In this document: positions 31,699-59,860 of the stretch, in pieces
Layout of the letters: each line of letters begins with the position of its first letter
Position numbering within the stretch: the first letter of the stretch is position 1
Assembly (NCBI GenBank): GCA_040754455.1
Contig: JBFMCP010000007.1
Span: 27,379 to 91,378, forward strand
Source: Nitrospirota bacterium
Lineage (GTDB): Bacteria > Nitrospirota > Thermodesulfovibrionia > Thermodesulfovibrionales > Dissulfurispiraceae
Length of the DNA stretch: 64,000 nucleotides
Reading direction: 5' to 3'
The notes under the pieces: model-generated
What the model was told of the DNA's origin: nothing
The model's database searches: none
Seen by the model: only the letters and a program-made list of their open reading frames with translations
Position numbers and translations under genes: made by a program

Positions 31699-31700
31699 CC

Positions 31701-41393: not shown

Positions 41394-41480
41394 TTGGAGC
41401 CCATTCAAAAAAAACTTGCCTATTTACCTTTCACTTTTTTACTCTAAGGTAACCAAAACTCTCTTTACAAGGTGACAGCC

Positions 41481-44034: not shown

Positions 44035-45621
44035 ATGATTTATTTTAAAAAGGCTTTTTTTGTTCTGATCCTCAGCCTTAACCTGTGCCTCTTTCTCACC
44101 ACCTGCACCTCCTCGAACCGACTTGATGACCATGTCTACTATCGCATCAATGCTAACCCGTCCTCCCTCGATCCGGCATTGATTACTGATGTTATGAGCG
44201 CAACCATTGCTGCCAAGATCTTCAACGGGCTCGTCAGGCTGGATGATAATCTTGGTATTGCCCCTGATATTGCGGAACAGTGGGAAATATCGAAGGACGG
44301 GCGTACCTATCTCTTTTACCTCAAAAGGGGGGTTCGATTCTCCAATGGGCGCGAGGTGAGGGCAGAGGATTTTAAATATTCGTATGAGAGAGTGCTCGAT
44401 CCCAAAACAAAGTCGCCCAATCTCTGGGTGCTCGACAAAGCCGAAGGGGCCAGGGAATTTCGTGAGGGAAAGGCAAAAGAGGTGACTGGCTTCAGAATTG
44501 TTGATGATTATACTTTTGAGATAAGGCTGGGCAAGCCTTTCTCTCCCTTCCTCGGCATGCTCACCATGACCGCCGCCTATGTCGTCCCCAGGGAGGAGGT
44601 TGAACGGCGGGGAGTCGATTTTTCGAGCCAGCCCTCGGGCACCGGGCCTTTTGTGCTGAAGCAGTGGCTGCCCAACAGGGAGGTGGTGCTCGAAAAGAAT
44701 AGAAGCTATTTTGAAGGCGAGCCCTGCGTGAGGGGTATTATCTATAAGGTGATCCCCGAGGACCTGACAGCGGTCACCGAATTCGAGCTCGGCAATCTCG
44801 ATGTGCTTTCGCTCCCTGCGTCGGCCTATGCAAAATTCAGAAATGACAAGAAGTGGAGTGAGCATCTCCTGTCGCTCCAGGGGCTCAATACGTATTATCT
44901 CGGATTCAATGCATCGAAGCCCCCCTTCAATAATGCTGCACTCAGGAGGGCCGTTGCTCATGCCATCGATAGGGAGAAAATTCTCAAAACCTTCTATGAG
45001 AAGAGAGGGAGATCGGCAATCGGCCCTGTACCCGATCTGCTCAGAAAATGGACCGTAAGCGAAGATGCAAAAGGAGTCTTCATATATGACCCGAAGAGGG
45101 CACGGGAGATTATCACGAAAGAGGGCTTCCGGGGAGTCTCGGTGAGCCTGTATGTTACTGCCGATCAAGAGGTGGTCGATCTGGCCGAGATCATACAATC
45201 ATATCTGAAGGAAGTGGGGGTCAATGTCTCGATCAAACAGCTTGAGTGGAGCGCCTATAAGGATGCCATCAATAGAGGTGAACCCCATCTCTTCTGGCTC
45301 AGCTGGTGGGCCGACTATCCCGATGCGGAGAATTTCCTCTTTCCGTTATTCCACTCCTCCAATTTCGGTCCTGCGGGCAACAGGACACGGTACATCAACA
45401 AGGAAGTGGATGCATTGATCGAGAAGGGGCAGTATGCACTGGGCGAGGGAGAGCGGAATGATTATTACCGGAGCGCGGAGGAGATTATTATATCCGATGC
45501 GCCGTGGGTTCCCTTCTGGCACCGGACCGATTTTCTCGTCAAGCAGCCGTGGATAAAAGGATATAAGGTCTATCCAATCTACAGTATGGACAAGGGGACA
45601 GAGATAAAGATCAAAAAGTAG
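44035..45621 (+). CDS. Peptide/nickel ABC transporter substrate-binding protein (family 5)
   Basis: PSSLDPA, GVRFSNG, GTGPF, LRRAVAHAIDR and WWADYPD motifs. Confidence 0.93.
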   Translation: MIYFKKAFFVLILSLNLCLFLTTCTSSNRLDDHVYYRINANPSSLDPALITDVMSATIAAKIFNGLVRLDDNLGIAPDIAEQWEISKDGRTYLFYLKRGVRFSNGREVRAEDFKYSYERVLDPKTKSPNLWVLDKAEGAREFREGKAKEVTGFRIVDDYTFEIRLGKPFSPFLGMLTMTAAYVVPREEVERRGVDFSSQPSGTGPFVLKQWLPNREVVLEKNRSYFEGEPCVRGIIYKVIPEDLTAVTEFELGNLDVLSLPASAYAKFRNDKKWSEHLLSLQGLNTYYLGFNASKPPFNNAALRRAVAHAIDREKILKTFYEKRGRSAIGPVPDLLRKWTVSEDAKGVFIYDPKRAREIITKEGFRGVSVSLYVTADQEVVDLAEIIQSYLKEVGVNVSIKQLEWSAYKDAINRGEPHLFWLSWWADYPDAENFLFPLFHSSNFGPAGNRTRYINKEVDALIEKGQYALGEGERNDYYRSAEEIIISDAPWVPFWHRTDFLVKQPWIKGYKVYPIYSMDKGTEIKIKK

Positions 45622-45692: not shown

Positions 45693-47408
45693 ATGTTGGA
45701 TTCTTTTTCGAAAAGAGAGATAGAGACGATCCTCGACTCCACCAATGACGGTATGATCGCTGTTGACCGTGAAGGTGTCATCACTATTTTCAACAAGGCT
45801 GCGGAACGCATTACCGGCCTGTGTGCCGGAGAGGTCATCGGACGTCCTGCCGCCGAGGTCATCCCCAATACCCGTCTTCCTCTGGTACTTGCAACAGGAG
45901 AGCCCGAGCTGGACCAGCAGCAGGCGATAGGGAGCACGGTCATCCTTACCAGCAGGGTTCCGCTCAGGGACGAGAGCGGGGCGGTGACCGGCGCGGTCGC
46001 GGTCTTCAGGGATAACACTGAGGTTAAACTGCTTTCAGAGCAGGTCTCCGATCTCTGGAAATCACGCAGCCTCCTCGAGGCGATTATCGAATCGACGAAG
46101 GATGCCATTTCCGTAGCCGATGAGAACGGCAACAATCTTATCGTGAACCACGCCTATACGAGAATAACCGGACTCTCCAAGGAGGCGGTCATCAATAAAC
46201 CGGTTACGATTGACATCGCTGAAGGCGAGAGTATGCATATGAAAGTGCTGAGGACCGGAAAACCGGTGCACAACGTGCGGATGAAAGTCGGTCCTCTGAA
46301 AAGAGATGTGGTGGTCAACGTCGCGCCAGTAGTGATCGACGGAAAGATCAGGGGGAGCGTCGGCGTCATTCATGATATCTCCGAGATACTGGCGCTGACA
46401 AAGGAGCTTGACCGCGCTCAGCGGTTGATACGCCATCTCGAGGCGCGCTATACCTGGGACGATATCATCGGCACGAGCCCTGCCATGGTGAGCGCCAAGG
46501 AACAGGCGAAGCGCGCTGCCGAAACACCGGCAACAGTCCTCTTGAGAGGAGAGAGCGGCACCGGAAAAGAGCTCTTCGCCCATGCCATTCACAACGCAAG
46601 CCCCCGCGGAAGAGGGCAGTTCGTGAGAGTGAATTGCGCCGCCATTTCGGAGAGCCTTCTCGAGAGCGAGCTTTTCGGGTACGAGGCGGGCGCCTTTACC
46701 GGCGCGCTGCGCGGAGGACGCAAGGGGCTGTTCGAGGAGGCGAATGGCGGCACCATATTCCTCGATGAGATAGGGGAGGTCACTCCTTCGCTCCAGAGCA
46801 AGCTGCTCAGGGTGCTGCAGGAGCGTGAAATCGTGCGTGTCGGCGGCAGCCGTGCAGTTCCTGTCGATGTGCGGGTTATCGCTGCGACGAATGTGCATCT
46901 CGAAAAAAAGGTGCGTGCCGGCGCGTTCAGGGAGGACCTCTACTACCGCCTCAATGTCATCCCTCTCTCTATTCCTCCCTTGCGTGAGCACAAAGAGGAC
47001 ATTAAACCGATTGCCGAACATATCATCTATCAGCTCAATCAGGAATTCGGTCGCCAGGTGCAGCGGCTTTCCGACGATGCCATTACCTACCTCCTTACGT
47101 ATGACTGGCCGGGTAATGTAAGAGAGCTCGAAAACATCCTCGGCAGGGCAATGATCAACATGCGGCCACAGGATGCGGAGATGCGGCTGGAGCATATTCC
47201 TTCTCTTGAGTGCGACAGGATACCTCAGGTCCCTGCACGTACACTATCATCAATTTTGCCTCTCGAAAAAACGCTCGAGGATGCGGAGCGTTCTGCCATT
47301 TCAAAGGCACTCAAAGAGTCGGGTGGCAACCGCACTAAAGCGGCTGAACTACTCGGCATCGCTATAAGAAGCCTCTATTATAAGCTCGAAAAGTATGGCA
47401 TTAGTTGA
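45693..47408 (+). CDS. sigma54-dependent activator with two PAS domains (PrpR/BkdR/RocR-like)
   Basis: [30 protein letters not shown] and WPGNVREL motifs; Fis HTH. Confidence 0.95.
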
Positions 47409-47415
47409 CCTGGTT

Positions 47416-47462
47416 TGCAAAAAATTGCATGCAAATTATTGCATTTAATGCAATGGATTGCA
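47416..47462. promoter_or_regulatory. Three enhancer-like palindromes TGCAA-N4-TTGCA
   Basis: Copies at 47416-47429, 47430-47443 and 47449-47462. Confidence 0.75.
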
Positions 47463-47549
47463 GTGTTTTACCCGTCCTGCACAGCCTTCGATTATTAAAT
47501 GATCAATAAAAACAATATCTTCAAATTGCTGCTACGTTTTGTAATCTGT

Positions 47550-47565
47550 TGGTATATGAATTGAT
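47550..47565 (+). promoter_or_regulatory. Putative sigma54 promoter
   Basis: TGGTAT-ATGAA-TTGAT with -24/-12 spacing, downstream of the enhancer sites. Confidence 0.55.
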
Positions 47566-47614
47566 ATATCCCCTCCTGTAGTAGTACGCCGCTAAAAATC
47601 GAGGAGGAGGACAC

Positions 47615-48598
47615 ATGAGAGCAGTAACGCCGCACATCTATGAAATCGACACCGAGGCATTCGGCCAGGAAAAGATCGTTGCATCATATTTAATAAAAGG
47701 AAAGGACAAGACGGCACTTGTCGATCCGGGCTTTCCGTCATCTGCTCCCATCATTAAAGAAAAGCTGAAGAACAACGGGTTCGATCCCGCAAATATCGAT
47801 TATGTCCTCCTTACCCATTTTCACCTCGACCACAGCGGCGGTACTGGAGCGATTCTCAAGGATTCTCCAAAGGCAAAGGTAGTCATCCACAAGAGGGCTG
47901 CTTTCTATATACGCAACTTTGCGAAGGTCGTCGGCGGCGCACGCATGGTCTTCAGGCCTGAAATCATTAAGAAGTTCGGAATGGCCTACGATGTGCCGCA
48001 CGACAGCGTAGTGCCGGTGACGGATGGAGAGACTATCGACCTGGGCGGCGGCGTTCGAGTACGGGTTATTCATACGCCAGGCCACTGCCCGGACGAGGTG
48101 TCGTTTTTTGAGGAATCCTCCGGAGCGATGATCACCGGAGATATGGCGTGCCTTCAATATCCGGCTTTCAATTATGTTCCGATCCCCGCAGGGAGCCCTC
48201 CGATCTTTGATCTCGCTGAAGAGGTTGCTTCTCTTGAGGCGCTCAGATCGATACAGGCAGGGAGGATATTGCTGCCCCACTACGGGGAATTACAAGGCAG
48301 TTGGAAAGACTTCATTGACAACTCCATAGAGGCAATAGAGAACACGCGCAATAAGATCAACGGCATGTTCAAGGAGAACATTGAGTTCCAGCAGATGGTC
48401 GAGCGGCTCAGGGCTGACCTCATTCGAGCGTCAGGCAAGAGGATAGAAGATGTCCCCGCGTTTCTCTCCGAGGTGTATATCCGGGAAATGCTCAAGACCG
48501 GACTGATGGGATTCTTCGCCTATCTGCTCGAGTATGCGCCGTACCCTCGATCTTTCTCGTATGAAGCATGCACCGTGGGAATTTCACAGGAGGAATAG
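47615..48598 (+). CDS. Metallo-beta-lactamase-fold hydrolase
   Basis: THFHLDHSGG, HTPGH, TGD and PHYG motifs; GAGGAGG RBS. Confidence 0.93.
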   Translation: MRAVTPHIYEIDTEAFGQEKIVASYLIKGKDKTALVDPGFPSSAPIIKEKLKNNGFDPANIDYVLLTHFHLDHSGGTGAILKDSPKAKVVIHKRAAFYIRNFAKVVGGARMVFRPEIIKKFGMAYDVPHDSVVPVTDGETIDLGGGVRVRVIHTPGHCPDEVSFFEESSGAMITGDMACLQYPAFNYVPIPAGSPPIFDLAEEVASLEALRSIQAGRILLPHYGELQGSWKDFIDNSIEAIENTRNKINGMFKENIEFQQMVERLRADLIRASGKRIEDVPAFLSEVYIREMLKTGLMGFFAYLLEYAPYPRSFSYEACTVGISQEE

Positions 48599-51316
48599 AT
48601 GATACAGCAGGTCAAGACATACTGCAACCAGTGTTACAACGGGCCCGATCCTTTTGTCATGAATGTCGAAGACGGTGTGGTGAAGAGTATCGAGCCTGAT
48701 TTCGATTGCGAAAAGTTCAGCCCCGGGCAGGGAAGGGTATGTGTAAAAGCGTACGGGCTCGTCCAGAAAATGTACAACTCCAACAGGATCAAAAATCCGA
48801 TGATACGCACCAACCCGAAAAAGGGAAAGGATGAAGATCCCGGATTCAAGGAGATCAGCTGGGATGAGGCGCTGGACATCGTTGCCGATAAATTGAAAGC
48901 GATCCGGCAAAAGGGGCTCACCGACGAAAGCGGATATCCGCGCCTCGCTGTCTCTATGGGAGAGGCGGGTGCGCCTGCAGCATACGGCGGGACCTTCCCT
49001 GCGTTTCTTTCGGCATGGGGTGCTGTCGATTTCACCCTCGGCGGCGGCGAGGGCTCGAAGTGCTATCATTCCGAACATCTCTATGGGGAGCTCTGGCACC
49101 GCGGCTTCATCGTTGTTTCCGATACTCCCCGGAACAAATGGACGCTCTCCTTCGGCCACAACACCAATGCCTCTGCGGGAGTGTCGGGCGTGATGCGCCA
49201 CGCCGAGGCCCGCGAACGGGGATATAAAAGAATACAGGCCGAGCCGCACCTCTCGGTGAGCGCTGTGACCTCGGATGAATGGATACCGCTCAAGACAAAA
49301 TCCGATGCGCCGTTCATGTATGCGATGATCTATTCGATCCTCTATGAGCTGGGCTGGAAAAAGGTCTGCGATCTCGATTTCATCAAGAAGCGGACGAACA
49401 GCCCCTACCTCATCGGCCCGAAGGGCTATTACCTGAAAGACGGGGAGAGCGAAAAAGTGCTGGTGTGGGATGCGGTCGACAACTGTGCTAAGGCCTATGA
49501 TGATCCAACCATAAAAGACGCTGCCCTCACCGGAAGCTATAGAGTATCCAACACAATCGAAAAGGGGCCTGATGGTGAGCAGTGGGAATACAAAGAGGCG
49601 TCATGCAGACCTTCCTTTGATCTTTTCCTCGGGCATATGAAGCCCTACACTCCAGAATGGGCTGCGAAGATATGCGATCTCCCGGCCTCTACGATCCGGA
49701 GAATGGCAAGGGAGTATGTCGAGCATGCACACATAGGCGAAGAGATCGAGGTATGTGGAGAGAAGCTCCCCTACCGGCCTGTCGGCATAAGCCTCGGCAA
49801 GACGATCAACAACGGCCCTGGCGGTTACCAGGCATGCTGGGCAAGGACAATACTGGCGATGCTGGTTGGTGCGCTCGAGGTGCCCGGCGGCACGGTTGGT
49901 GCCTCGCAGCGGCTCAACCGCCCGCACCACGACCGCTGGTCGAGCGTGTGGCCGGGAGAAGACGGGTTCTTCCAGAACTTCCTGAACCCGACGGATACGG
50001 AGCGTAGGGGAAAGCTCCAGAAGACGCGCTCGCACTATACCGAGCTCGTGCCTCTCGTCGGCAACACCGGATGGTCGCCGTTTCTCTCCCCTGTCCCTCA
50101 CGCATGGCTCTGGTACAACGAGACACCCGAGAACTGGAGCAAGCCGACCTTCCCCGATGTATGGATCATCTATAGAGTAAATCCGAACATGTCGATGTAC
50201 TACACGGACATGATGCTCGAGACGACGAAGAAGTTCCCCTACATCGTCGCCTTCGGCTATACCATTGACGAGACGAACTGGTATGCGGACATCATCCTCC
50301 CCGAAAGCAGCGATCTTGAGAGTCTCCAGCTCTTCAGGCTGGGGCCGTCGACGCACTCAGAGGCGTATTGGGAAGAATACGGATTCGGTCTGCGGCAGCC
50401 CGGAGGAAATCTTCCTTACAATACCATGGACATGACCGATATCTGTACAGAACTCTCTGCACGGACCGGCATTCTGAAGGAATACAACGACGCCATTAAC
50501 GCAGGCGTTATCCTCGGTATACGGCTTCAGGGAAAAGGCTACAACTATATGCTCGATCCCGGCAGGAAATATTCGAGGGAGGAGATATGGGACGGACTCT
50601 GCAGGTCATCGGTCAGACTGCTCACCGGCGGAAAAGAGGAGCACGACCTCGAGTGGTTCAAGAAGCACGGATATTTTACTGTTCCGTATCCTTTGATACG
50701 CCACTTCCTGCATCCCGTTATGGTGAAATGGGGACTGAGGTATGAGGTCCCCTACCAGGGAAGGTTGAAGGTCGTCGGCGAGGAGCTGAAGAAACGGCTT
50801 GAGGAAAAGGGCATCAGGTGGTGGGAGGAGCAGTTGAGCGAATACGAAGCGCTCCCGAAATGCGAGGACTACACGAAGAAATGGGACCATGTCCTGAAGA
50901 AGAAGGGACTGAACCCTGATGATTACCCGTTGTTCCTCATCAATACGAGGAGCATGCATTTCGCCTGGGGAAGCAATACCTGCCTGCCGGTGCTGGCTGA
51001 AATGGCTAAATATGTTACCGGCTTCGGCGGTCTGGTCATCAATACAAAGATTGCAGCGGAAAAAGGCATACAGGATGGTGACACTATTGTGATCGAGTCA
51101 CCTCTCAAAAGAAAGAAATGCACGGCAATCGTCAGGGAAGGAATCAGGCCGGACACTGTGGTGCTCACCGGGCAATTCGGCAACTGGGCCATGCCCTTTG
51201 CAAAAGACCTGAACATCCCCAGCATCAATGAACTGATAGAGCCCGACCAGGAACTGTTCGATGCCGGCGGCAGCAGCTGTGACATCGTCAGAGTGAAAAT
51301 ATACAAGGAGCACTGA
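48599..51316 (+). CDS. DMSO-reductase-family molybdoenzyme catalytic subunit, phenylacetyl-CoA:acceptor oxidoreductase (PadB)-like
   Basis: TYCNQCYNGPD..VCVKAYGL, RTNPKKGKDEDPGF, GTFPAFLSAWG and KCYHSEHLYGELWHR recalled as PadB-like; no Tat signal. Confidence 0.85.
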   Translation: MIQQVKTYCNQCYNGPDPFVMNVEDGVVKSIEPDFDCEKFSPGQGRVCVKAYGLVQKMYNSNRIKNPMIRTNPKKGKDEDPGFKEISWDEALDIVADKLKAIRQKGLTDESGYPRLAVSMGEAGAPAAYGGTFPAFLSAWGAVDFTLGGGEGSKCYHSEHLYGELWHRGFIVVSDTPRNKWTLSFGHNTNASAGVSGVMRHAEARERGYKRIQAEPHLSVSAVTSDEWIPLKTKSDAPFMYAMIYSILYELGWKKVCDLDFIKKRTNSPYLIGPKGYYLKDGESEKVLVWDAVDNCAKAYDDPTIKDAALTGSYRVSNTIEKGPDGEQWEYKEASCRPSFDLFLGHMKPYTPEWAAKICDLPASTIRRMAREYVEHAHIGEEIEVCGEKLPYRPVGISLGKTINNGPGGYQACWARTILAMLVGALEVPGGTVGASQRLNRPHHDRWSSVWPGEDGFFQNFLNPTDTERRGKLQKTRSHYTELVPLVGNTGWSPFLSPVPHAWLWYNETPENWSKPTFPDVWIIYRVNPNMSMYYTDMMLETTKKFPYIVAFGYTIDETNWYADIILPESSDLESLQLFRLGPSTHSEAYWEEYGFGLRQPGGNLPYNTMDMTDICTELSARTGILKEYNDAINAGVILGIRLQGKGYNYMLDPGRKYSREEIWDGLCRSSVRLLTGGKEEHDLEWFKKHGYFTVPYPLIRHFLHPVMVKWGLRYEVPYQGRLKVVGEELKKRLEEKGIRWWEEQLSEYEALPKCEDYTKKWDHVLKKKGLNPDDYPLFLINTRSMHFAWGSNTCLPVLAEMAKYVTGFGGLVINTKIAAEKGIQDGDTIVIESPLKRKKCTAIVREGIRPDTVVLTGQFGNWAMPFAKDLNIPSINELIEPDQELFDAGGSSCDIVRVKIYKEH

Positions 51317-51317
51317 T

Positions 51318-51965
51318 ATGAAACGATGGGGAATGGTGATAGATATGAAGAAATGCACGGGATGTCAGACCTGCACGCTCTCCTGCAAGGTGTACCACGG
51401 CCTCGGTCCCGATGTGGTACGGTGCCGCGTTATTGAGCAGGAGACCGGAAGCTTTCCTGCAGTGGAGAGAATGCTCTTCTCGCTCAGGTGCATGCACTGC
51501 AATGAACCCGAGTGCATGAAGGCCTGTCCGACGGGAGCGACCCGCAGGCGCGCCGACGGTATCGTCACTGTTGATCAGGATAAATGCATGGGCTGCAGAT
51601 ATTGCGCTCTCGTGTGCCCCTACCAGGCGAGGACGTTTCTCGGTGTGGAGAAGCGGTATTTCCCTGAGAACGGCAACCTCTGGGAAAACATGCGATATAA
51701 AGAGCACCAGGTGGGGACGGTCGAAAAGTGCGATTTCTGCCAGAAACGGATCGATGAGGGCCTTGCAAAAGGGCTGGAGCCCGGTAAAGACCCTGCGGCA
51801 ACCCCCATGTGCGTTATCTCATGCATCGGCAAAGCGCTCTACTTCGGAGACCTGAATGACCCGGCCAGTATGGTATCGAATCTCATCAGGGAGCGGAAAG
51901 GGTTTGCATTGAAGCAGGAGCTCGGAACAGAACCATCAGTGTACTATCTGCCAAGGAAGAGGTGA
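51318..51965 (+). CDS. 4Fe-4S dicluster subunit (PadC/DmsB/NrfC-like)
   Basis: RWGMVID..KCTGCQTC, CMHC..PECMKACP, CMGCRYC..VCPY, KCDFC and PSVYYL motifs. Confidence 0.92.
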   Translation: MKRWGMVIDMKKCTGCQTCTLSCKVYHGLGPDVVRCRVIEQETGSFPAVERMLFSLRCMHCNEPECMKACPTGATRRRADGIVTVDQDKCMGCRYCALVCPYQARTFLGVEKRYFPENGNLWENMRYKEHQVGTVEKCDFCQKRIDEGLAKGLEPGKDPAATPMCVISCIGKALYFGDLNDPASMVSNLIRERKGFALKQELGTEPSVYYLPRKR

Positions 51966-51968
51966 GCC

Positions 51969-52868
51969 ATGATAACAGCGCAGCGACACAACATGTTCCA
52001 GCAGGAGTGGACAGGAAAAGGTGAGCGGGGAATACGGGACTTCCTCCTCATCCCGGCGATCTTCTTCGGGGCCGTATGCCCGGGGCTCTTTATCTCATCA
52101 GTGCTCACCGATTATGTTCCGGGTTATTGGGTAGCCCTGGCGCTCAATCTGATAGGCTACGGCGTAGCGCATCTCCTCTTCCTCGGAAGGATGGAGCGGT
52201 TCTGGAGAGCGGTCATCAACCTGAGGACCTCATGGATCAGCAGAGGGTTCCTCTTCAATGCGATGTTCAGCCTTTTCGGGCTGCTCTACGCACTTTCTGA
52301 AGCTGCGGACCTGCCAATTCTGAGCGGCCCGGCAGTGAACGCCCTACTCAAATTGATGAGCATCCTCTCCGCCGTCTTGTTTGCGGCCTATCCGGGCTTT
52401 ATGATCTCGATCGTCAAGGCCATTCCCTTCTGGCGTTCTACGCTCGAGCCGGTGCTTTTCTTCCTCCAGGGCGTCATGGGCGGCATGGCGATTCAGGTGC
52501 TCCTTATGAGTATCATTGCTCTGCCGGGAGCCGCTGATAACGCATTGATAAAAATAAACACCATACTCGTTCTGATCGTACTACTCCTTTTCATGACGGC
52601 GCTGGTGATCAAGGCACTGCACGGAGGCGCAGAAAAGATATCGGTAACTTTTCTTACAACAGGAGCATTTTCTCCTGTATTCATTGGCGGGACTATTATC
52701 GTCGGTCTGGTGGTACCGCTTTTTCTCCTCATTGCAGGGCTTTTTCTGAATCTTGATTTCGGCGCCTACCGCTCTTTATATTACATAGCACTGCTTATGG
52801 AGCTGGTAGGTATCTATCTCGGCAAGTACAGCATTCTGAGAGCAGGCGCGTATGCACCGCTGAAGTAG
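51969..52868 (+). CDS. NrfD/DmsC-family membrane anchor (PadD-like)
   Basis: QQEW, HL.FLGRMERFWRA...RTSWISRG and IPFW motifs; multiple TM helices. Confidence 0.85.
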   Translation: MITAQRHNMFQQEWTGKGERGIRDFLLIPAIFFGAVCPGLFISSVLTDYVPGYWVALALNLIGYGVAHLLFLGRMERFWRAVINLRTSWISRGFLFNAMFSLFGLLYALSEAADLPILSGPAVNALLKLMSILSAVLFAAYPGFMISIVKAIPFWRSTLEPVLFFLQGVMGGMAIQVLLMSIIALPGAADNALIKINTILVLIVLLLFMTALVIKALHGGAEKISVTFLTTGAFSPVFIGGTIIVGLVVPLFLLIAGLFLNLDFGAYRSLYYIALLMELVGIYLGKYSILRAGAYAPLK

Positions 52869-52986
52869 CATGCTCGCAGGATTCAGCCGAGGCAACCGTT
52901 CAGGCAGGTGACACTGTTTGGACGGTTTTGCGTATTGAAGAGCTGACAGCTATCATACAAAATAACATGCTGTAATGGAGGAAACG

Positions 52987-54885
52987 ATGGGCAGGTACGA
53001 GGAGATCTTCAGGAAGAGCATACAGGATCCTCACGGCTTTTGGGGAGAAGCGGCTGAGGCGTTATCCTGGTACAGGAAGTGGGACAAGGTGCTTGATAAT
53101 ACGAATCCGCCGTTTTACCGCTGGTTTGCAGGTGGTGAGATGAACACCTGCTATAACACGCTCGACCGTCATGTCGAAGGTGGCAGGGCGGACCAGGTTG
53201 CACTGATTTACGACAGCCCGGTAACCAACCAGGTTCAGAAATTTACCTACCGTGAGCTGCGGGACAGGGTGGCGCGTTTCGCAGGCGTCCTCAAGGGCCT
53301 CGGTGTCGAAAAGGGCGACCGGATCGTTATCTATATGCCGATGATCCCCGAGGCGGTCGTCGCCATGCTCGCCTGCGCGCGCCTCGGCGCCATCCATTCG
53401 GTGGTCTTTGGCGGCTTCGCATCCAATGAGCTCGCCATAAGGATCGATGACGCAAAACCGAAAGTGATCATCTCCGCATCTGGTGCCATTGAAGTGAAGC
53501 GGCTCATCGAGTACAAGCCCTTGCTCGACAGGGCCATTGAGCTTGCCTCCCATAAGCCTCAAACGTGCGTGATCTTCCAGAGGCCATTGATCAAGGCTGA
53601 AATGATATCGGGCAGGGACCTCGATTGGGAGGAATTGGCGGCAAGGGCAGAGCCGGCGGATTGTGTCCCTGTCAAGGCAACCGATCCCCTTTATATCCTC
53701 TACACCTCCGGCACGACCGGCATGCCGAAAGGCGTGGTGAGAGACAACGGCGGCCACGCTGTGGCTCTGCGATGGAGCATGGAACATGTATACGGCATGA
53801 AGCCCGGAGAGGTGTACTGGGCCGCATCCGACGTGGGCTGGGTTGTGGGGCATTCCTATATTGTTTATGGGCCGCTCCTGACCGGATGCACAACGATCCT
53901 CTATGAGGGCAAGTCCGTCGGCACGCCTGACCCCGGTGCCTTCTGGAGAGTCATCTCGCAACATGGCGTGAAAGCGCTCTTTACTGCACCGACCGCGTTT
54001 CGCGCCATAAAGAAAGAGGACCCGAATGGTGAGTATGTAAGGAAATACGATCTTTCGGGATTCAAATATCTCTTCCTCGCCGGAGAGCGGCTCGATCCGG
54101 ACACCTACCACTGGGCGCATAATTTATTGCAGTGTCCTGTGATTGACCATTGGTGGCAGACGGAGACAGGATGGCCGATTACGGCCAATTGCATGGGCAT
54201 AGAACAGTTCCCGATCAAGCCAGGCTCCTCGACCAAACCGGTGCCCGGATACGATGTCAGGGTCCTCGACGGCAACGGCAAGGAGCTCGGACCGAACCAG
54301 GAAGGCCTCGTCGCCATTAAGCTCCCCTTGCCGCCGGGAACGCTTCCCACGCTCTGGCAGGCCGATGAGCGGTTCATGACATCGTACATGAGCATGTTCC
54401 CGGGATACTATTTCACGAGCGACGGCGGGTACAGGGATGAAGAGGGATATACCTTCATCATGGGACGTGTCGATGACGTGATCAATGTCGCCGGACATCG
54501 GCTCTCGACGGGTGCCATGGAAGAGATCATTGCAAAGCACCCTGCAGTTGCCGAATGCGCGGTGATCGGTGCTGCTGATTCCCTCAAGGGACAGCTCCCG
54601 GTGGGATTCATTGTACTGAAGGCCGGTGCTAACGGCAACAGCGAAAAGATCAAAGAGGAGCTTGTCCAGATGGTACGCGGCCAGATCGGTCCGATCGCCT
54701 GCTATAGAGAAACCGCGGTTGTCGCGCGGCTTCCAAAGACGCGTTCGGGCAAAATCCTGCGGGGCATCATGCGGAAGATTGCGGACGGACAGGAATACCG
54801 CATGCCGTCCACCATCGATGATCCTGCGATCCTCGGCGAGATCGAGGAGGCGCTGAAGGGGATTGGATACGCTAAGAAGAAGTAG
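52987..54885 (+). CDS. prpE: Propionyl-CoA synthetase (propionate--CoA ligase)
   Basis: YTSGTTGMPKGVVRDNGG, WAASDVGWVVGHSY, DHWWQTETGW and LPKTRSGKILR motifs, typical of PrpE rather than Acs. Confidence 0.85.
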   Translation: MGRYEEIFRKSIQDPHGFWGEAAEALSWYRKWDKVLDNTNPPFYRWFAGGEMNTCYNTLDRHVEGGRADQVALIYDSPVTNQVQKFTYRELRDRVARFAGVLKGLGVEKGDRIVIYMPMIPEAVVAMLACARLGAIHSVVFGGFASNELAIRIDDAKPKVIISASGAIEVKRLIEYKPLLDRAIELASHKPQTCVIFQRPLIKAEMISGRDLDWEELAARAEPADCVPVKATDPLYILYTSGTTGMPKGVVRDNGGHAVALRWSMEHVYGMKPGEVYWAASDVGWVVGHSYIVYGPLLTGCTTILYEGKSVGTPDPGAFWRVISQHGVKALFTAPTAFRAIKKEDPNGEYVRKYDLSGFKYLFLAGERLDPDTYHWAHNLLQCPVIDHWWQTETGWPITANCMGIEQFPIKPGSSTKPVPGYDVRVLDGNGKELGPNQEGLVAIKLPLPPGTLPTLWQADERFMTSYMSMFPGYYFTSDGGYRDEEGYTFIMGRVDDVINVAGHRLSTGAMEEIIAKHPAVAECAVIGAADSLKGQLPVGFIVLKAGANGNSEKIKEELVQMVRGQIGPIACYRETAVVARLPKTRSGKILRGIMRKIADGQEYRMPSTIDDPAILGEIEEALKGIGYAKKK

Positions 54886-54939
54886 GCTATGGGCAAAGGG
54901 TGGCAAGAAAATTAAAATCTTAACACGAGTTGCGCTCGT

Positions 54940-55125
54940 TCGTCATTCCGGGCTTGACCCGGAATCCGGACGTCGTCCCCGTGAAAACGGGGCACCGGAA
55001 CCTATTTACGAATGGGTTCATAAGTAAGAGAACCGTTGTTTGTCATTCCGGCTTGTCCGGAACCTTTCTTTCCTGAAGGATTCCCGACGCGCTCTGCTTG
55101 CGGGAATGACACCTTACTTATGTAC
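54940..55125. repeat. Cluster of REP/MITE-like palindromes
   Basis: GTCATTCCGGGCTTGACCCGGAATCC; TGTCATTCC...GGGAATGACA bracketed by CATAAGTAAG/CTTACTTATG inverted repeats. Confidence 0.75.
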
Positions 55126-55241: not shown

Positions 55242-55270
55242 TTGACAAAAAAAGAGAGAACCTATAAAAT
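55242..55270 (+). promoter_or_regulatory. sigma70 promoter upstream of the riboswitch
   Basis: TTGACA-17nt-TAAAAT. Confidence 0.7.
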
Positions 55271-55297
55271 TCCTACGCTCTCATGCTCTATGACCTT

Positions 55298-55388
55298 GTT
55301 CGAAAGGGCAAACCATCCGAAAGGACGGGACGCAAAGCCTACGACCTAAGGGCTGTTTAACAGTCAATGGTAGCCAGGCTGCCGAAGA
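55298..55388 (+). ncRNA. c-di-GMP-I (GEMM-I) riboswitch aptamer
   Basis: GGGCAAACC..GAAA..GGGACGCAAAGC..CTAAGG..ATGGTAGCC.GGCTGCCGAA consensus. Confidence 0.9.
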
Positions 55389-55558
55389 GGGGATAGTTTC
55401 GTCACCGTAGTTTTCCCGTTCTTCGAACAACATTACATCGCTCTGCAGCGCAGGTCATTGATAGTGAAAGGTGGTGATAGGGGGACCTCTGCTGATTGAC
55501 GTTTTGTTGTTGTGCAACAAAGGAGTTGTGATCTTACTAATGCAATAAGGAGGAAGAC

Positions 55559-55831
55559 GTGACGAAGGCGGATTTGATTGAGAAGATCGCAGCATCGGCG
55601 CATCTCACGAAGGCGGATGCAGAAAGGGCGCTCAATGCTGCATTGGACACGGTAAAGGGCGCGCTGAGCAAGGGGAAGAAGGTTACCCTTGTCGGTTTCG
55701 GTACTTTCTCGGTTTCGAAGAGAAAGGCGCGAAAGGGACGCAATCCGAGGACTGGTGCGGTTATCAAGATTGCTGCTGCAAAGGTCCCGAAATTTACCGC
55801 CGGTAAGGCTTTTAAAGATGCGGTAAGATAG
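55559..55831 (+). CDS. hup: HU family DNA-binding protein
   Basis: [21 protein letters not shown] and [14 protein letters not shown] motifs; AAGGAGG RBS. Confidence 0.96.
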
Positions 55832-56492: not shown

Positions 56493-57434
56493 TTGAGGTG
56501 GCGCATCACAACATATATTTTCAAACGATTGCTTCTTCTCATTCCGCTGCTGCTGGGCATTACCCTCTTTGCCTTTCTGCTCCTCAAGACCCTTCCCGGC
56601 GATATTGTACTGAGTCTCGTTGGTGAGCGGGCGAGCCCCGAGGTGATCGAGAGCATCAGAAGGGAGCTTGGTGCGGACGAGGGTGTTCTTGCTCAGTATG
56701 TCGGATATCTGAAATTGCTGATGCAAGGAGATTTCGGGAGATCGTATCATACCAATAGAGAGGTGCTCGCGGATATCCTCATGAAGTTTCCCAACACCCT
56801 GCGACTTGCCCTTGCGGCGATGCTCATCTCTATTCCCGGCGGTATCCTCCTGGGCTTTATTGCGGCGTATCGCAGGGGAGGGCTTGTAGAACAGTGTATC
56901 AACGCGCTCTCTATCGGGGGACTGAGCATTCCTGTGTTCTGGAGCGCGATCATGATTATGATTCTCTTCAGCCTCACGTTGAAGCTTTTCCCTCCGTCGG
57001 GAACGGGAGGCTTCAAATTTCTTGTGCTCCCTGCCTTTGTGCTGTCCATCCCCGCCACTTCAACTCTGATACGGGTGACCAAAACAACGGTAGCGGATAT
57101 CCTGGCGATGCCTTACATTACCACGGCCCGCGCGAAAGGAGTCTCGCTGCTGCGCATACGGGCGGTGCATGTATTTAAAAACGCGGTCATTCCGATCGTT
57201 ACCATTATAGGACTTGATTTCGGCAGTTATCTGAACGGGGCGGTGGTGACCGAGACCATCTTCGGCTGGGACGGCATCGGGAGGTTTACCATGGAAGGCA
57301 TTCTGAAGAGAGACTATCCTGTCATCATGGGATGCATCATCATAGGGACTATTGTGTTCGTTATGATCAACCTGATCACGGATATCGTGTATCATTATCT
57401 CGACCCGAGGATCCGGCTGCATGGGAAAGAGTGA
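56493..57434 (+). CDS. Peptide/nickel ABC permease (OppB/DppB-like)
   Basis: LPGD, QYVGYL..GDFGRS, TARAKG and GAVVTETIF motifs. Confidence 0.93.
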   Translation: MRWRITTYIFKRLLLLIPLLLGITLFAFLLLKTLPGDIVLSLVGERASPEVIESIRRELGADEGVLAQYVGYLKLLMQGDFGRSYHTNREVLADILMKFPNTLRLALAAMLISIPGGILLGFIAAYRRGGLVEQCINALSIGGLSIPVFWSAIMIMILFSLTLKLFPPSGTGGFKFLVLPAFVLSIPATSTLIRVTKTTVADILAMPYITTARAKGVSLLRIRAVHVFKNAVIPIVTIIGLDFGSYLNGAVVTETIFGWDGIGRFTMEGILKRDYPVIMGCIIIGTIVFVMINLITDIVYHYLDPRIRLHGKE

Positions 57435-58278
57435 TCCGATGCCCTTGCAACGAGTTCTGAGCACGCCGAAACTGTCGGTCCCTCTCTTGATCATACTCCT
57501 CTTCTTTGCGCTTTCGCTCCTCGCTCCCCTGCTCCCACTCCACGATCCGGGCAGGATCGATCTCGAATTACTGAGAATGCCGCCGAGCTTTGAGCATCCC
57601 TTCGGAACGGACAACAAGGGAAGGGACCTCTTTTCGAGGGTCATTTACGGGGCGAAGATATCCATAGGGGTGGCGATGATTGCTGCATCGGTATCCGCAG
57701 CCATCGGATTTATCGTAGGATTGACATCGGGCTACTTTGGCGGAAAGTTCGATGCAGTGGTCATGTCGGTGGTCGATTTCATTCTCTCGTTCCCTTCCCT
57801 GCTCCTGGCTATCGCCATTTCAGTAGTCCTGCCGCCGGGACTTTATACGGTGATGATCGCATTGACGGTGGTGGGCTGGGCCTCCTTTGCACGATTGGTG
57901 AGAGGGCATGTGCTTACCCTAAAGAGTATGGCCTTTGTTGATGCAGCGAGAGCGGTGGGGTGCAGCACCGCACGCATACTCTTCATCCATATTGCGCCCC
58001 TCTGTATTCCTCTTGCGCTGGTGATGATGGGAATAAAGCTTGGCGGCTTTATGCTTACCGAGGCGACCCTGAGTTTCCTGGGGCTTGGAGCGCAACCGCC
58101 CGCGCCCACCTGGGGGGCAATGATCAGTGCGCACAGAACGTATATTCTTACTGCTCCGTGGATGGTGGTGTTTCCGGGACTTGCACTATCGGTGGTCGCC
58201 TTTTGCTTTAACTTGGCGGGTGAGGCATTGAAGCAGAAATACGAACTGAAGGAGCGTGGCCGGGGGGATGCCGCTTAG
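57421..58278 (+). CDS. Peptide/nickel ABC permease (OppC/DppC-like)
   Basis: HPFGTDNKGRD, FVDAARAVG, EATLSFLGLG and WGAMI motifs. Confidence 0.93.
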   Translation: MGKSDPMPLQRVLSTPKLSVPLLIILLFFALSLLAPLLPLHDPGRIDLELLRMPPSFEHPFGTDNKGRDLFSRVIYGAKISIGVAMIAASVSAAIGFIVGLTSGYFGGKFDAVVMSVVDFILSFPSLLLAIAISVVLPPGLYTVMIALTVVGWASFARLVRGHVLTLKSMAFVDAARAVGCSTARILFIHIAPLCIPLALVMMGIKLGGFMLTEATLSFLGLGAQPPAPTWGAMISAHRTYILTAPWMVVFPGLALSVVAFCFNLAGEALKQKYELKERGRGDAA

Positions 58279-59765: not shown

Positions 59766-59860
59766 TTATTTTCCCTCCCTGCATGCATCACGTAAATCCT
59801 GCAGTGGTTATGCTGTTCCGCTTATTGACGGAAACGAAGAACTGCTGATGCCGGAAGGTA

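What the first reader, a model, noticed from the sequence alone, without database searches (positions are those of the whole stretch)
45693..54885. PadBCD-like molybdoenzyme with MBL hydrolase and PrpE under a PAS-sigma54 activator: candidate new anaerobic acyl-CoA alpha-oxidation pathway
Seen: all genes are co-oriented in the order activator, three enhancer palindromes, sigma54-like promoter, MBL hydrolase, Mo catalytic subunit (no Tat signal, so cytoplasm-facing), 4Fe-4S subunit, NrfD-like anchor (gaps of 0-3 nt), then a PrpE-type synthetase. Known: phenylacetyl-CoA:acceptor oxidoreductase (PadBCD of Thauera/Aromatoleum) oxidises the alpha carbon of a CoA thioester with a quinone acceptor. 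It normally sits with phenylglyoxylate oxidoreductase PadEFGHI and phenylacetate-CoA ligase PadJ, and none of those is here. Glyoxalase II, an MBL-fold enzyme, hydrolyses 2-hydroxyacyl thioesters. Inference: propionate (or another short acid) is activated to acyl-CoA, oxidised by the Mo enzyme to 2-hydroxy/2-oxo-acyl-CoA, and released by the MBL as lactate or pyruvate. This would be a route independent of methylmalonyl-CoA and methylcitrate. Caveats: an aliphatic alpha C-H is less activated than a benzylic one, and prpE may be transcribed separately.
Basis: partly seen in the sequence, partly recalled or inferred. Interest (0 to 1): 0.9.

Follow-up and report, generated by a model that had tools for sequence, protein, structure and literature searches.

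The report
PadBCD-like molybdoenzyme operon with thioesterase and PrpE
An uncultured Nitrospirota bacterium carries a tightly regulated gene set that looks built to turn a short fatty acid such as propionate into its 2-oxo acid without oxygen, which would be an undescribed route, but no experiment yet shows its substrate.

Summary
At 45693-54885 (+) lie a PAS-PAS sigma54 activator, three exact TGCAA-N4-TTGCA palindromes, a -24/-12-like motif, an MBL hydrolase, a Tat-less Mo-bisPGD subunit, a four-cluster Fe-S subunit, an NrfD-type anchor (gaps 0/1/3 nt) and, 106 nt on, a PrpE-type ligase.

New evidence:
- The MBL gene sits directly upstream of the Mo gene in 6 of 6 related Nitrospirota loci. 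The promoter motif and palindromes recur upstream of it.
- prpE and the activator are linked in 2 of 6 loci, once in a rearranged order with a palindrome in front of prpE. The other four loci show no prpE, but their upstream flanks are short.
- The MBL model matches PqsE, an MBL-fold acyl-CoA thioesterase, better than any other solved structure.
- The Mo subunit is 48% identical to the Thauera protein named phenylacetyl-CoA:acceptor oxidoreductase. It falls in a separate clade (support 1.0), the only one where the MBL link is seen.

The substrate is inferred only from the PrpE link. Activating an acid and then hydrolysing the thioester is costly for a sulfate-reducer-like anaerobe. Most relatives also carry a second, lactonase-like MBL that the model does not explain.

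Verdict: a new variant of the PadBCD kind. The propionate-to-pyruvate reading is plausible but unproven.

The parts
45693..47408 (+). PAS-PAS sigma54-dependent activator (bEBP), 571 aa
   Evidence: Pfam finds PAS x2, Sigma54_activat (238 bits), AAA_lid_14 and HTH_8. No NCBIfam equivalog is reached; the best is PrdR at 472 bits against a cut-off of 795. Orthologues lie next to the cluster in L001 (80% identity) and L005 (65%).
47416..47462 (+). Three tandem TGCAA-N4-TTGCA palindromes, the presumed activator binding sites (UAS)
   Evidence: These are the only 3 matches in 64 kb, all exact. Copies with at most 1 mismatch lie upstream of the MBL gene in L001 (3), L002 (1), L004 (2) and L005 (1). 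One exact copy lies upstream of prpE in L005.
47550..47565 (+). Sigma54-type -24/-12-like promoter, TGGTAT-N5-TTGAT
   Evidence: Single match in the window. The motif is conserved in position, starting 59-73 nt before the MBL start codon, in L001, L002, L004 and L005.
47615..48598 (+). MBL-fold metallo-hydrolase (MBL1), predicted PqsE-like acyl-CoA thioesterase, 327 aa
   Evidence: Lactamase_B at 111 bits. H68, H70, D72, H73, H157 and H222 are invariant in 39 homologues. The AF2 model has pLDDT 90.7. Every listed Foldseek PDB rank from 1 to 16 is PqsE, with E 3.5e-18 to 5e-16 and TM 0.67-0.78. A GGAGG sequence precedes the ATG.
48599..51316 (+). Mo/W-bisPGD catalytic subunit, PadB-like, Tat-less, 905 aa, 102.6 kDa
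   Evidence: Pfam Molybdopterin plus Molydop_binding. Identity to Thauera sp. SWB20 protein P0500 is 48% over 903 residues. Cys155 in KCYHSEH aligns with the Cys of ArrA, PsrA and FdhA, and C155, H157, E159 and H160 are invariant. The ATG follows the MBL1 stop codon directly and has its own GGAGG.
51318..51965 (+). Four-cluster [4Fe-4S] electron-transfer subunit, PadC-like, 215 aa, 24.3 kDa
   Evidence: Fer4_11 and related domains. The best NCBIfam match is DsrO at 171 bits, below the cut-off of 200. It has 17 Cys in four motifs and no signal peptide.
51969..52868 (+). NrfD/PsrC-type membrane anchor, the presumed quinone site, PadD-like, 299 aa, 32.7 kDa
   Evidence: Pfam NrfD at 61 bits and DmsC at 31 bits. 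Multiple hydrophobic segments.
52975..54885 (+). PrpE-type short-chain acyl-CoA synthetase (AMP-forming), 636 aa
   Evidence: NCBIfam propionate--CoA ligase models give 786 and 749 bits, both below cut-off, while the Acs subfamily model is passed. PDB 5gxd_A matches at 910 bits over residues 10-633. Homologues of 79-87% identity are named propionyl-CoA synthetase.

Best explanation
This is a sigma54-controlled catabolic module that works like the PadBCD step of anaerobic phenylacetate degradation, but is paired with a short-chain acid ligase.

1. A small-molecule signal, sensed by the PAS domains, makes the activator bind the three palindromes and open the -24/-12 promoter. This step is inferred from conserved motifs.
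2. The PrpE orthologue activates a short carboxylic acid, most likely propionate, to its CoA thioester. This is inferred from family membership.
3. The cytoplasm-facing Mo/W-bisPGD enzyme inserts oxygen from water at the alpha carbon. It oxidises the acyl-CoA by four electrons to the 2-oxoacyl-CoA and passes the electrons through four Fe-S clusters to menaquinone at the NrfD-type anchor. This is inferred by analogy with PadBCD.
4. The PqsE-like MBL hydrolyses the 2-oxoacyl-CoA to the free 2-oxo acid, which would be pyruvate if the substrate is propionate. This is inferred from fold similarity and conserved gene order.

Shown: the gene content, the orientation towards the cytoplasm, the conserved regulation motifs, the conserved MBL-Mo linkage, and the separation from the Thauera clade.

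Not shown: any substrate, product or transcript.
For: Architecture and topology:
- The genes are a Tat-less Mo subunit, a four-cluster Fe-S subunit and an NrfD anchor, with gaps of 0, 1 and 3 nt.

Family:
- JGI names homologues of 50-82% identity phenylacetyl-CoA:acceptor oxidoreductase.
- The best 50%-level representative, P0339, belongs to a 202-member cluster. Of its 12 named members (40 read), 7 are named as Thauera and 2 as an Alphaproteobacteria MAG, and 4 carry the JGI name.
- Identity to Thauera sp. SWB20 is 48% over 903 residues.
- The KCYHSEH motif is conserved: C155, H157, E159 and H160 are present in 128 of 129 core sequences.

Distinct clade:
- In a 138-sequence tree the window lies in a 15-tip clade (support 1.0) inside a 31-tip clade (1.0) and a 45-tip clade (1.0).
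- The Thauera proteins lie in the other, 78-tip half (support 0.65), on a long branch.

MBL partner:
- It is directly upstream of the Mo gene in 6 of 6 Nitrospirota loci.
- The MBL family is small, with 32 clusters at 40% identity or more, against more than 4,000 Mo-subunit hits.
- Its model matches PqsE first, and PqsE is second by sequence at E 4e-11.

PrpE link:
- The arrangement is the same in L001 and rearranged (prpE-activator-MBL-Mo) in L005.
- Two more contigs, of 54,555 and 23,236 bp, hold all three proteins by the contig-length criterion.
- An exact palindrome lies 216 nt before prpE in L005.

Regulation:
- The promoter motif and the palindromes are conserved in all 5 sources that include the region upstream of the MBL gene.
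Against: - No substrate evidence exists.
- prpE lies within the fetched flanks in only 2 of 6 related loci. L003, L004 and L006 have 5.5-6.8 kb downstream of nrfD without prpE. L002 has 1.3 kb upstream of MBL1 with neither activator nor prpE. Their further upstream sides are off-contig.
- The linked PrpE is no more diverged than unlinked homologues in Deferrisoma, Dadabacteria and others, all at 79-81% identity. It may therefore be an ordinary housekeeping propionate ligase that is merely a neighbour.
- No sigma54-like site precedes prpE in the window or in L001.
- The route costs two ATP equivalents for activation and then discards the thioester by hydrolysis. That is a poor bargain for a low-energy anaerobe (my own reasoning).
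- From standard free energies I estimate the lactate/propionate couple at about 0 mV. The first hydroxylation would then be uphill with menaquinone, and only the overall four-electron step would be roughly neutral (my own calculation, not a tool result).
- A second MBL, YtnP-lactonase-like at 324-330 bits, is conserved next to the cluster in 4 relatives. The model does not explain it.
- Whether classical pad clusters also carry an MBL gene is unknown. A 'hyp' gene precedes padB in Sedimenticola CUZ.
Confidence: 0.4

Rival explanations
1. It is an ordinary arylacetyl-CoA (phenylacetyl-CoA) alpha-oxidising PadBCD, used in aromatic amino-acid or phenylacetate breakdown. The MBL would be the phenylglyoxylyl-CoA thioesterase that the classical pathway needs. 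PrpE would be an unrelated neighbour.
For: - Source names and 48% full-length identity to the Thauera protein.
- The family is tightly conserved, with 61% mean column identity across bacteria and archaea, which fits one shared chemistry.
- The classical pathway is described as including hydrolysis of phenylglyoxylyl-CoA (passage seen in PMC9765128). A thioesterase is listed among its enzymes (passage seen in PMC13416013).
- The closest solved fold to the MBL, PqsE, acts on an aromatic acyl-CoA.
- A 'hyp' gene precedes padB in Sedimenticola CUZ.
Against: - No PaaK/PadJ-type ligase and no PadEFGHI-like 2-oxoacid oxidoreductase lies in the 64 kb window or in the six Nitrospirota loci next to the cluster. 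The only 2-oxoacid oxidoreductase found, in L003, scores best as PorA/PorB.
- The window clade is separated from Thauera with support 1.0.
- The residue after the Mo-ligand Cys is Tyr here, as in 110 of 129 core sequences, but Val in all three Thauera proteins.
- prpE stays linked through a rearrangement and has an activator-type palindrome upstream in L005.
Confidence: 0.2
2. The Mo enzyme acts on another organic substrate or runs in the reductive direction. One option is quinol-driven dehydroxylation of a 2-hydroxyacyl-CoA. Another is oxidation of a hydroxy-acid CoA ester released from a lactone by the second MBL. In either case the two MBLs and PrpE would feed or clear the pathway.
For: - A YtnP-lactonase-like MBL2 is conserved beside the cluster in L001, L003, L004 and L006. 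It scores 324-330 bits against NF047919 and E 2e-69 against PDB 3esh.
- A monocarboxylate-type MFS transporter lies upstream of prpE in L005.
- A PrpB-like lyase lies beside MBL2 in L004 and L006, at 241 bits and below cut-off.
- By my own estimate, a couple near 0 mV would favour reduction by menaquinol.
Against: - MBL2 is absent from the window, where a riboswitch-HU cassette takes its place. It is therefore dispensable for the core module.
- No dehydroxylase precedent exists within this family.
- AMP-forming ligases of the PrpE type are not known for hydroxy-acid lactone products (my own knowledge).
Confidence: 0.15
3. It is a cytoplasm-facing enzyme for an inorganic substrate, of the Psr, Phs, Ttr, Arr or Soe kind. 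One example would be a sulfite:quinone or polysulfide/thiosulfate oxidoreductase in a sulfur-cycling Nitrospirota. The MBL and PrpE would be unrelated.
For: - The best NCBIfam matches are PhsA (153 bits), DsrO (171 bits) and NrfD.
- The best solved structures are ArrA and PsrA.
- A Cys Mo ligand is shared with that group.
- The host is a Nitrospirota MAG.
Against: - All these matches are far below family cut-offs and cover mainly the N-terminal third.
- There is no Tat signal.
- No sulfur-metabolism genes lie beside the cluster in the window or in 6 loci.
- The partner is a thioesterase-like MBL, and the neighbour is an acyl-CoA ligase.
- The nearest named relatives are PadB-like, not Soe or Psr.
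Confidence: 0.08

Closest known systems
Phenylacetyl-CoA:acceptor oxidoreductase PadBCD of Thauera/Aromatoleum. I saw Rhee and Fuchs 1999 only as cited in PMC4453571, PMC5109826 and PMC9765128. The subunit sizes of about 93, 27 and 26 kDa are recalled, not seen.
   Same: - Three subunits of matching types and similar sizes: 102.6, 24.3 and 32.7 kDa.
- No Tat signal.
- 48% identity to the Thauera sp. SWB20 homologue over 903 residues.
- A shared K-C-x-H-S-E-H active-site motif.
   Different: - It lies in a separate clade (support 1.0), apart from the Thauera proteins.
- Tyr rather than Val follows the Cys ligand.
- It is not accompanied by padEFGHI or padJ in the visible DNA.
- It is accompanied by a PqsE-like MBL, a PrpE-type ligase and a PAS-sigma54 activator.
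- The host is an anaerobic Nitrospirota MAG, which presumably uses menaquinone rather than ubiquinone (my inference).
PqsE of Pseudomonas aeruginosa, an MBL-fold 2-aminobenzoylacetyl-CoA thioesterase (name as given in the PDB)
   Same: - It is the best structural match: TM 0.67-0.78 over 305-322 columns, including the C-terminal helical extension.
- The HxHxDH, H and H metal-ligand set is conserved.
   Different: - Identity is only 20-22%.
- The genomic context differs, being a Mo enzyme rather than quinolone synthesis.
- The substrate is unknown.
PrpE, propionate--CoA ligase. The closest solved structure is PDB 5gxd, titled only 'AMP-dependent synthetase and ligase'. That it is the Dinoroseobacter shibae propionate/acrylate ligase is recalled and was not confirmed here; neither of the 2 papers listed concerns this protein by title or abstract start, and neither was opened.
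   Same: - Full-length match at 910 bits.
- Relatives of 79-87% identity are named propionyl-CoA synthetase by NCBI and JGI.
   Different: - It scores below both NCBIfam PrpE equivalog cut-offs.
- It sits with a Mo enzyme rather than with prpBCD.
Polysulfide/thiosulfate/arsenate reductases (PsrABC, PhsABC, ArrAB)
   Same: - The same subunit triad, a Cys Mo ligand, and the closest solved folds.
   Different: - Those enzymes are exported by Tat and face the periplasm (my own knowledge); this one has no signal.
- Identity is 18% or less.

Membership tests
PadBCD (phenylacetyl-CoA:acceptor oxidoreductase) | Membrane-bound heterotrimer of a Mo-bisPGD subunit, an Fe-S subunit and a membrane anchor | tested here: met
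   Pfam and NCBIfam domains and gaps of 0-3 nt.
PadBCD (phenylacetyl-CoA:acceptor oxidoreductase) | Active site faces the cytoplasm (no Tat signal on the catalytic or Fe-S subunit) | tested here: met
   The N-termini begin with Fe-S cysteine motifs at residues 9 and 13.
PadBCD (phenylacetyl-CoA:acceptor oxidoreductase) | Catalytic subunit groups with PadB of Thauera/Aromatoleum | tested here: not met
   It belongs to the same broad family (48% identity) but lies in a different clade with support 1.0. Two caveats apply. The Thauera proteins are taken as PadB from their source names and genus, not from the purified enzyme's sequence. The tree is also sampled around the query.
PadBCD (phenylacetyl-CoA:acceptor oxidoreductase) | Clustered with padEFGHI (phenylglyoxylate oxidoreductase) and padJ (phenylacetate-CoA ligase) | tested here: not met
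   None is present in the 64 kb window or next to the cluster in 6 loci. The rest of the genome was not visible.
PadBCD (phenylacetyl-CoA:acceptor oxidoreductase) | Oxidises phenylacetyl-CoA to phenylglyoxylate with a quinone | not testable with these tools
   This needs an enzyme assay.
PqsE-like MBL thioesterases | MBL fold with a complete binuclear metal site and a C-terminal helical lid | tested here: met
   H68, H70, D72, H73, H157 and H222 are invariant. The model has pLDDT 90.7, and PqsE entries fill every listed rank from 1 to 16.
PqsE-like MBL thioesterases | Hydrolyses an acyl-CoA thioester | not testable with these tools
   Fold similarity at 20-22% identity does not fix the substrate.
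PrpE (propionate--CoA ligase) equivalog | Score above the NCBIfam equivalog cut-off | tested here: not met
   786 bits against 955 (NF007815) and 749 bits against 827.4 (TIGR02316). It does pass the Acs subfamily model NF001208, at 693.5 bits against 657.
PrpE (propionate--CoA ligase) equivalog | Full-length similarity to PrpE-type rather than Acs-type enzymes | tested here: met
   5gxd scores 910 bits, against 491 bits or less for acetyl-CoA synthetases. Near relatives are named propionyl-CoA synthetase.
Sigma54-dependent bacterial enhancer-binding proteins | AAA+ sigma54-interaction domain and C-terminal HTH, with upstream repeats and a -24/-12 promoter at the target | tested here: met
   Domains. 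Palindromes and promoter motif are conserved in position in 5 of 5 sources that include the upstream region.
Psr/Phs/Ttr/Arr respiratory reductases | Tat-exported catalytic subunit and scores reaching the family model cut-offs | tested here: not met
   There is no Tat signal. PhsA scores 153 bits against 694, and ArrA 118 bits against 1600.

The most novel reading that the evidence does not exclude
A clade of PadB-like molybdo- or tungsto-enzymes, in Nitrospirota and with a sister clade in Planctomycetota, hydroxylates the unactivated alpha carbon of a short aliphatic acyl-CoA without oxygen. A dedicated MBL thioesterase then releases the 2-oxo acid, so that propionate goes to pyruvate. This would be a fourth kind of anaerobic propionate oxidation, independent of methylmalonyl-CoA, methylcitrate and acrylyl-CoA. 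It would also extend water-dependent Mo hydroxylation from benzylic to aliphatic thioester carbons.
Probability: 0.28. Interest if true: 0.85.

Novelty: new variant of a known kind. Interest (0 to 1): 0.62.

Why it matters
PadB-like genes are very common: more than 4,000 hits in bacteria and archaea. They are routinely annotated as phenylacetyl-CoA oxidoreductase, and papers use that label to infer aromatic degradation (passages seen in PMC3654217 and PMC4959651).

This work shows that one well-supported clade has a different, conserved set of partners. Those partners are a PqsE-like thioesterase, a PrpE-type ligase and a dedicated sigma54 activator. No pad genes lie nearby. The blanket annotation is therefore unsafe for this clade.

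If the substrate is a short aliphatic acyl-CoA, this would be a new oxygen-independent C-H hydroxylation and a new route from propionate to pyruvate in anoxic sediments. That would affect carbon-flow models and isotope-labelling interpretations.

The two soluble partners, MBL1 and PrpE, are easy to express, so the idea can be tested directly.

Tried and rejected
- **Genome-collection scan.** It returned only 7 loci.
- **Plasmid search.** tblastn gave no PadB-like hit above 31% identity, so it yielded no annotated pad cluster.
- **Literature searches.** I searched PadBCD, phenylacetyl-CoA with acceptor oxidoreductase and molybd, phenylglyoxylyl-CoA, padB with padC, padD and phenylacet (0 papers), molybdopterin oxidoreductase with propionyl-CoA synthetase and Nitrospir (0 papers), and Thermodesulfovibrion with phenylacetyl-CoA (0 papers). 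None turned up a description of this gene set or of a gene for the phenylglyoxylyl-CoA thioesterase.
- **5GXD.** The search listed 2 papers. By title and abstract start neither concerns this protein, and neither was opened. The identity of that PDB entry therefore rests on recall.
- **ESM Atlas look-ups.** They returned only generic 'molybdopterin oxidoreductase' and 'MBL fold' clusters.
- **Foldseek of the Mo-subunit model.** It showed only the general DMSO-reductase fold. The best match was ArrA at TM 0.66-0.74 and 18% identity. No solved relative exists to inform the substrate.
- **L007 (Desulfobacterales, 43% identity).** I rejected it as a member of the system. It has an N-terminal extension, no Fe-S or NrfD genes, and transposase genes beside it.
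- **The P0027/P0138 contig-length match (8,667 bp).** I set it aside because the two proteins come from different sources.
- **The MBL as an FprA/ODP-type di-iron redox protein.** I rejected this because it carries the hydrolase-type HxHxDH motif.
- **A sigma54 promoter in front of prpE.** I looked in the window and in L001. The GG-to-GC spacing does not fit.
- **Complex prediction.** It was not used. MBL1 plus the Mo subunit exceeds the size limit, and I make no claim that they bind.

Full report
**What is in the sequence**

Six co-oriented ORFs occupy 45693-54885 on the + strand.

| Coordinates | Size | Domains and best matches |
|---|---|---|
| 45693-47408 | 571 aa | Two PAS domains, sigma54-interaction AAA+ domain, HTH_8. 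No NCBIfam equivalog is reached; the best is PrdR at 472 bits against a cut-off of 795. |
| 47615-48598 | 327 aa | Lactamase_B |
| 48599-51316 | 905 aa | Molybdopterin and Molydop_binding |
| 51318-51965 | 215 aa | 4Fe-4S dicluster domains. Best match DsrO at 171 bits, below its cut-off. |
| 51969-52868 | 299 aa | NrfD/DmsC |
| 52975-54885 | 636 aa | ACAS_N, AMP-binding, AMP-binding_C. Best matches are the two propionate--CoA ligase models, both below cut-off. |

The Mo subunit starts MIQQVKTYCNQC, so its Fe-S cysteines begin at residue 9 and there is no room for a Tat signal. The Fe-S subunit has 17 cysteines in four cluster motifs and no signal peptide. The gaps between genes are 206, 0, 1, 3 and 106 nt. 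The Mo gene's ATG follows the MBL stop codon directly and has its own GGAGG.

**Regulatory DNA**

Three exact TGCAA-N4-TTGCA palindromes lie at 47416-47462. They are the only matches in 64 kb, even when one mismatch is allowed. TGGTATATGAATTGAT at 47550-47565 is the only match to a relaxed -24/-12 pattern in the window.

One such match is not rare by chance, since 28 of 100 shuffles gave at least one. Its position, however, is conserved. TGG[CT]A[CT]-N5-TTG occurs once in each of L001, L002, L004 and L005, and each time it starts 59-73 nt before the MBL start codon. Palindromes with at most one mismatch lie 100-200 nt further upstream: 3 in L001, 1 in L002, 2 in L004 and 1 in L005.

L003 lacks the upstream region. 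L006 has its single match between the MBL and Mo genes, which I cannot explain. The -12 element reads TTGA or TTGT rather than TTGC.

I conclude that the MBL-Mo operon is a real target of a sigma54 enhancer-binding protein.

**Relatives and synteny**

Six are Nitrospirota MAGs whose Mo subunit is 74-88% identical to the window's. One is a Desulfobacterales MAG at 43%. Source names for the window's own PrpE and MBL show a 222,507-bp contig of a 'MAG: Nitrospirota bacterium'.

- **MBL gene.** It lies directly upstream of the Mo gene in all 6 Nitrospirota loci.
- **Fe-S and NrfD genes.** They follow in the 5 loci whose contig extends that far.
- **L001.** It has the same order as the window, including the flanking nikA-like and nikBC-like genes.
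- **L005.** It has prpE-activator-(small ORF)-MBL-(small ORF)-Mo-FeS-NrfD, so prpE stays linked through a rearrangement. An exact palindrome lies 216 nt before prpE there.
- **The other four loci.** They do not show prpE. L003, L004 and L006 have 5.5-6.8 kb downstream without it and almost no upstream flank. L002 has 1.3 kb upstream of the MBL gene, holding two ORFs without Pfam matches.

Equal 'longest contig' lengths with shared sources link Mo, MBL and PrpE hits on two further contigs, of 54,555 and 23,236 bp. The same criterion links Mo and MBL on seven more. This is an inference, not a direct observation.

L007 is not the same system. It has an N-terminal extension, no Fe-S or NrfD genes, and transposases beside it.

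**A second MBL**

In L001, L003, L004 and L006 a different MBL gene (MBL2) follows nrfD, or follows prpE in L001. It scores 324-330 bits against the YtnP lactonase model (cut-off 425) and E 2e-69 against PDB 3esh.

The window has no copy. Its place is taken by a c-di-GMP-I riboswitch and an HU gene.

L004 and L006 also carry, divergently, a PrpB-like lyase (241 bits, below cut-off), hcp and sdhAB. L003 carries a four-subunit PorABDG-like oxidoreductase. L005 carries a monocarboxylate-type MFS transporter upstream of prpE. These neighbours are suggestive of small-acid metabolism but are not conserved.

**The Mo subunit**

More than 4,000 homologues were found. JGI names many of those at 50-82% identity phenylacetyl-CoA:acceptor oxidoreductase. 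They come from many bacterial and archaeal phyla.

Against 1.84 billion representatives there were 331 hits at E up to 1e-30. Identity drops from 49% to below 40% after about five full-length clusters, so the family is tight.

The top representative, P0339, heads a 202-member cluster. Of its 12 named members among 40 read, 7 are named as Thauera, including T. aminoaromatica and Thauera sp. SWB20. Two are fragments from an Alphaproteobacteria MAG, and 4 carry the JGI name. Thauera is the genus in which PadBCD was purified, according to passages in PMC5109826 and PMC4453571. I did not see the 1999 paper itself.

The window protein is 48% identical to the SWB20 protein over 903 residues.

In a FastTree LG+gamma tree of 138 sequences (the 120 best hits, 17 representatives or cluster members, and L007), the results were as follows:
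- The window lies in a 15-tip clade (support 1.0), all Nitrospirota where named.
- That clade sits inside a 31-tip clade (1.0) together with a Planctomycetota-named sister.
- The 31-tip clade sits inside a 45-tip clade (1.0) with archaeal sequences.
- The three Thauera proteins lie in the other, 78-tip half (support 0.65), on a long branch with Betaproteobacteria (0.997).

All 9 MBL-linked contigs fall in the 31-tip clade: 8 in the 15-tip clade and 1 in its sister.

Two caveats apply. The tree is sampled around the query. The Thauera proteins are taken as PadB from names only.

Cys155 aligns with the Cys of ArrA, PsrA and FdhA at what I take to be the Mo-ligand position; that these are the Mo ligands is my recall. 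C155, H157, E159 and H160 are present in 128 of 129 core sequences. The residue after the Cys is Tyr in 110 of 129, including the window, and Val in 9, including all three Thauera proteins. That difference may bear on the substrate pocket, but this is speculation.

The AF2 model (pLDDT 86.2) finds only the general DMSO-reductase fold. The best match is ArrA at 18% identity.

**The MBL (MBL1)**

Its family is small: 97 hits in all, with 32 clusters at 40% identity or more. The metal ligands H68, H70, D72, H73, H157 and H222 are invariant in 39 sequences.

By sequence, the best PDB matches are ST1585 (1.6e-12) and PqsE, '2-aminobenzoylacetyl-CoA thioesterase' (4e-11), ahead of glyoxalase II-type entries at about 1e-9.

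The AF2 model (pLDDT 90.7, pTM 0.88) matches PqsE at every listed rank from 1 to 16. E ranges from 3.5e-18 to 5e-16, TM from 0.67 to 0.78, over 305-322 columns. TTHA1429 and ST1585 follow, and then B3 lactamases at TM about 0.5.

An MBL-fold acyl-CoA thioesterase is therefore the nearest characterised relative, although identity is only 20-22%.

**The ligase**

It matches PDB 5gxd over residues 10-633 at 910 bits, against 491 bits or less for acetyl-CoA synthetases. Homologues at 79-87% identity are named propionyl-CoA synthetase. They occur in many taxa, including Nitrospirota, Deferrisoma and Dadabacteria.

The linked copies are not set apart from the rest. This argues for an ordinary propionate-type specificity. 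It also means the gene could simply be a common neighbour.

**Mechanism proposed**

- The acid is activated by the PrpE-type ligase.
- The acyl-CoA is oxidised at the alpha carbon by the cytoplasm-facing Mo enzyme, with electrons passing to the quinone pool.
- The 2-oxoacyl-CoA is hydrolysed by MBL1.
- The whole module is switched on by the PAS-sigma54 activator.

This copies the known sequence phenylacetyl-CoA, phenylglyoxylyl-CoA, phenylglyoxylate (passage in PMC9765128). With propionate the product would be pyruvate.

Shown: anatomy, topology, conserved regulation, conserved MBL-Mo pairing, and clade separation. Inferred: every chemical step.

**Reasons for caution**

- From standard free energies I estimate E0' of lactate/propionate at about 0 mV and of pyruvate/lactate at about -190 mV. 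Only the overall four-electron oxidation would then be roughly neutral with menaquinone. This is my own calculation.
- Two ATP equivalents are spent and the thioester energy is thrown away.
- prpE linkage is seen directly in only 2 of 6 loci.
- MBL2 is unexplained.
- Classical pad clusters may have their own gene upstream of padB. A 'hyp' gene is drawn there in supplement file 1 of PMC4453571.

**Novelty**

My searches of PMC and bioRxiv found no description of this gene set. They also found no assigned gene for the pathway's thioesterase. Papers outside that library were not searched.

I rate the finding a new variant of a known kind. It is a PadBCD-family enzyme with a distinct clade, distinct partners and distinct regulation.

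**What stayed unchecked**

- Wider synteny was not surveyed.
- The rest of the 222-kb contig was not visible.
- The true T. aromatica or Aromatoleum PadB sequence and its neighbours were not obtained.
- Any physical contact between MBL1 and the enzyme was not tested.

Noticed in passing
window 55242-55831 (+): A c-di-GMP-I riboswitch (RF01051, 72 bits, E 3.5e-12) lies at 55297-55386. A strong sigma70-like promoter precedes it at 55242-55270 (11 of 12 matches). A 90-aa HU/IHF-family gene follows at 55559-55831 (HU-beta model 108 bits, below its cut-off of 157). A nucleoid protein under c-di-GMP riboswitch control is unusual.
   Followed up: partly
window 44035-45621 and 56493-58278; L001 5402-6985 and 17438-19169: A NikA/OppA-type binding-protein gene and NikB/NikC-type permease genes are separated by the whole 9-11 kb cluster, both here and in L001. 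No ATPase genes follow. The cluster looks inserted into a nickel/peptide ABC operon. L005 has the cluster without these genes.
   Followed up: partly
window 41472-43949 (+): cooF-like (191 aa) and cooS (anaerobic CO dehydrogenase catalytic subunit, 687 bits, above cut-off) lie directly upstream of the NikA-like gene. They are absent at the same place in L001. This may be a nickel-supply link.
   Followed up: no
L001 16458-17300; L003 5563-6408; L004 7220-8200; L006 5818-6678: A second, YtnP-lactonase-like MBL gene is conserved beside the cluster in four relatives, at 56-95% identity to one another. It is missing from the window.
   Followed up: partly
L006 640-653: The only sigma54-like motif in L006 lies between the MBL and Mo genes rather than upstream of the MBL gene. 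Its meaning is unknown.
   Followed up: no
window 54935-55110; L001 14340-14420; L005 3400-3545: Hairpin-forming repeats of the REP or MITE type (for example 'gtcattccgg...ccggaat') fill intergenic DNA next to prpE in the window and in two relatives.
   Followed up: no
window 61398-63648 (-) and 59690-59766 (+): An IS21-family element with istA (505 aa) and istB (257 aa), both above NCBIfam cut-offs, lies 1.6 kb from a tRNA-Pro(GGG) gene.
   Followed up: no
window 40144-41331 (+): A bacterial eRF1-like (baeRF family 10) / ribosome-hibernation-factor-like protein sits next to an AI-2E family transporter. The pair is conserved in L001.
   Followed up: no
window 25584-32822 (+): A TetR-type regulator is followed by TolC-like, HlyD-like, two ABC ATPase and two RbbA/DrrB-type permease genes. 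Together they form a complete predicted efflux system.
   Followed up: no
alignment of 129 core Mo subunits, position 156 of the window protein: The residue after the Mo-ligand cysteine is Tyr in 110 sequences, Val in 9 (including all 3 Thauera proteins), Thr in 5 and Ala in 3. It is a candidate specificity position.
   Followed up: partly
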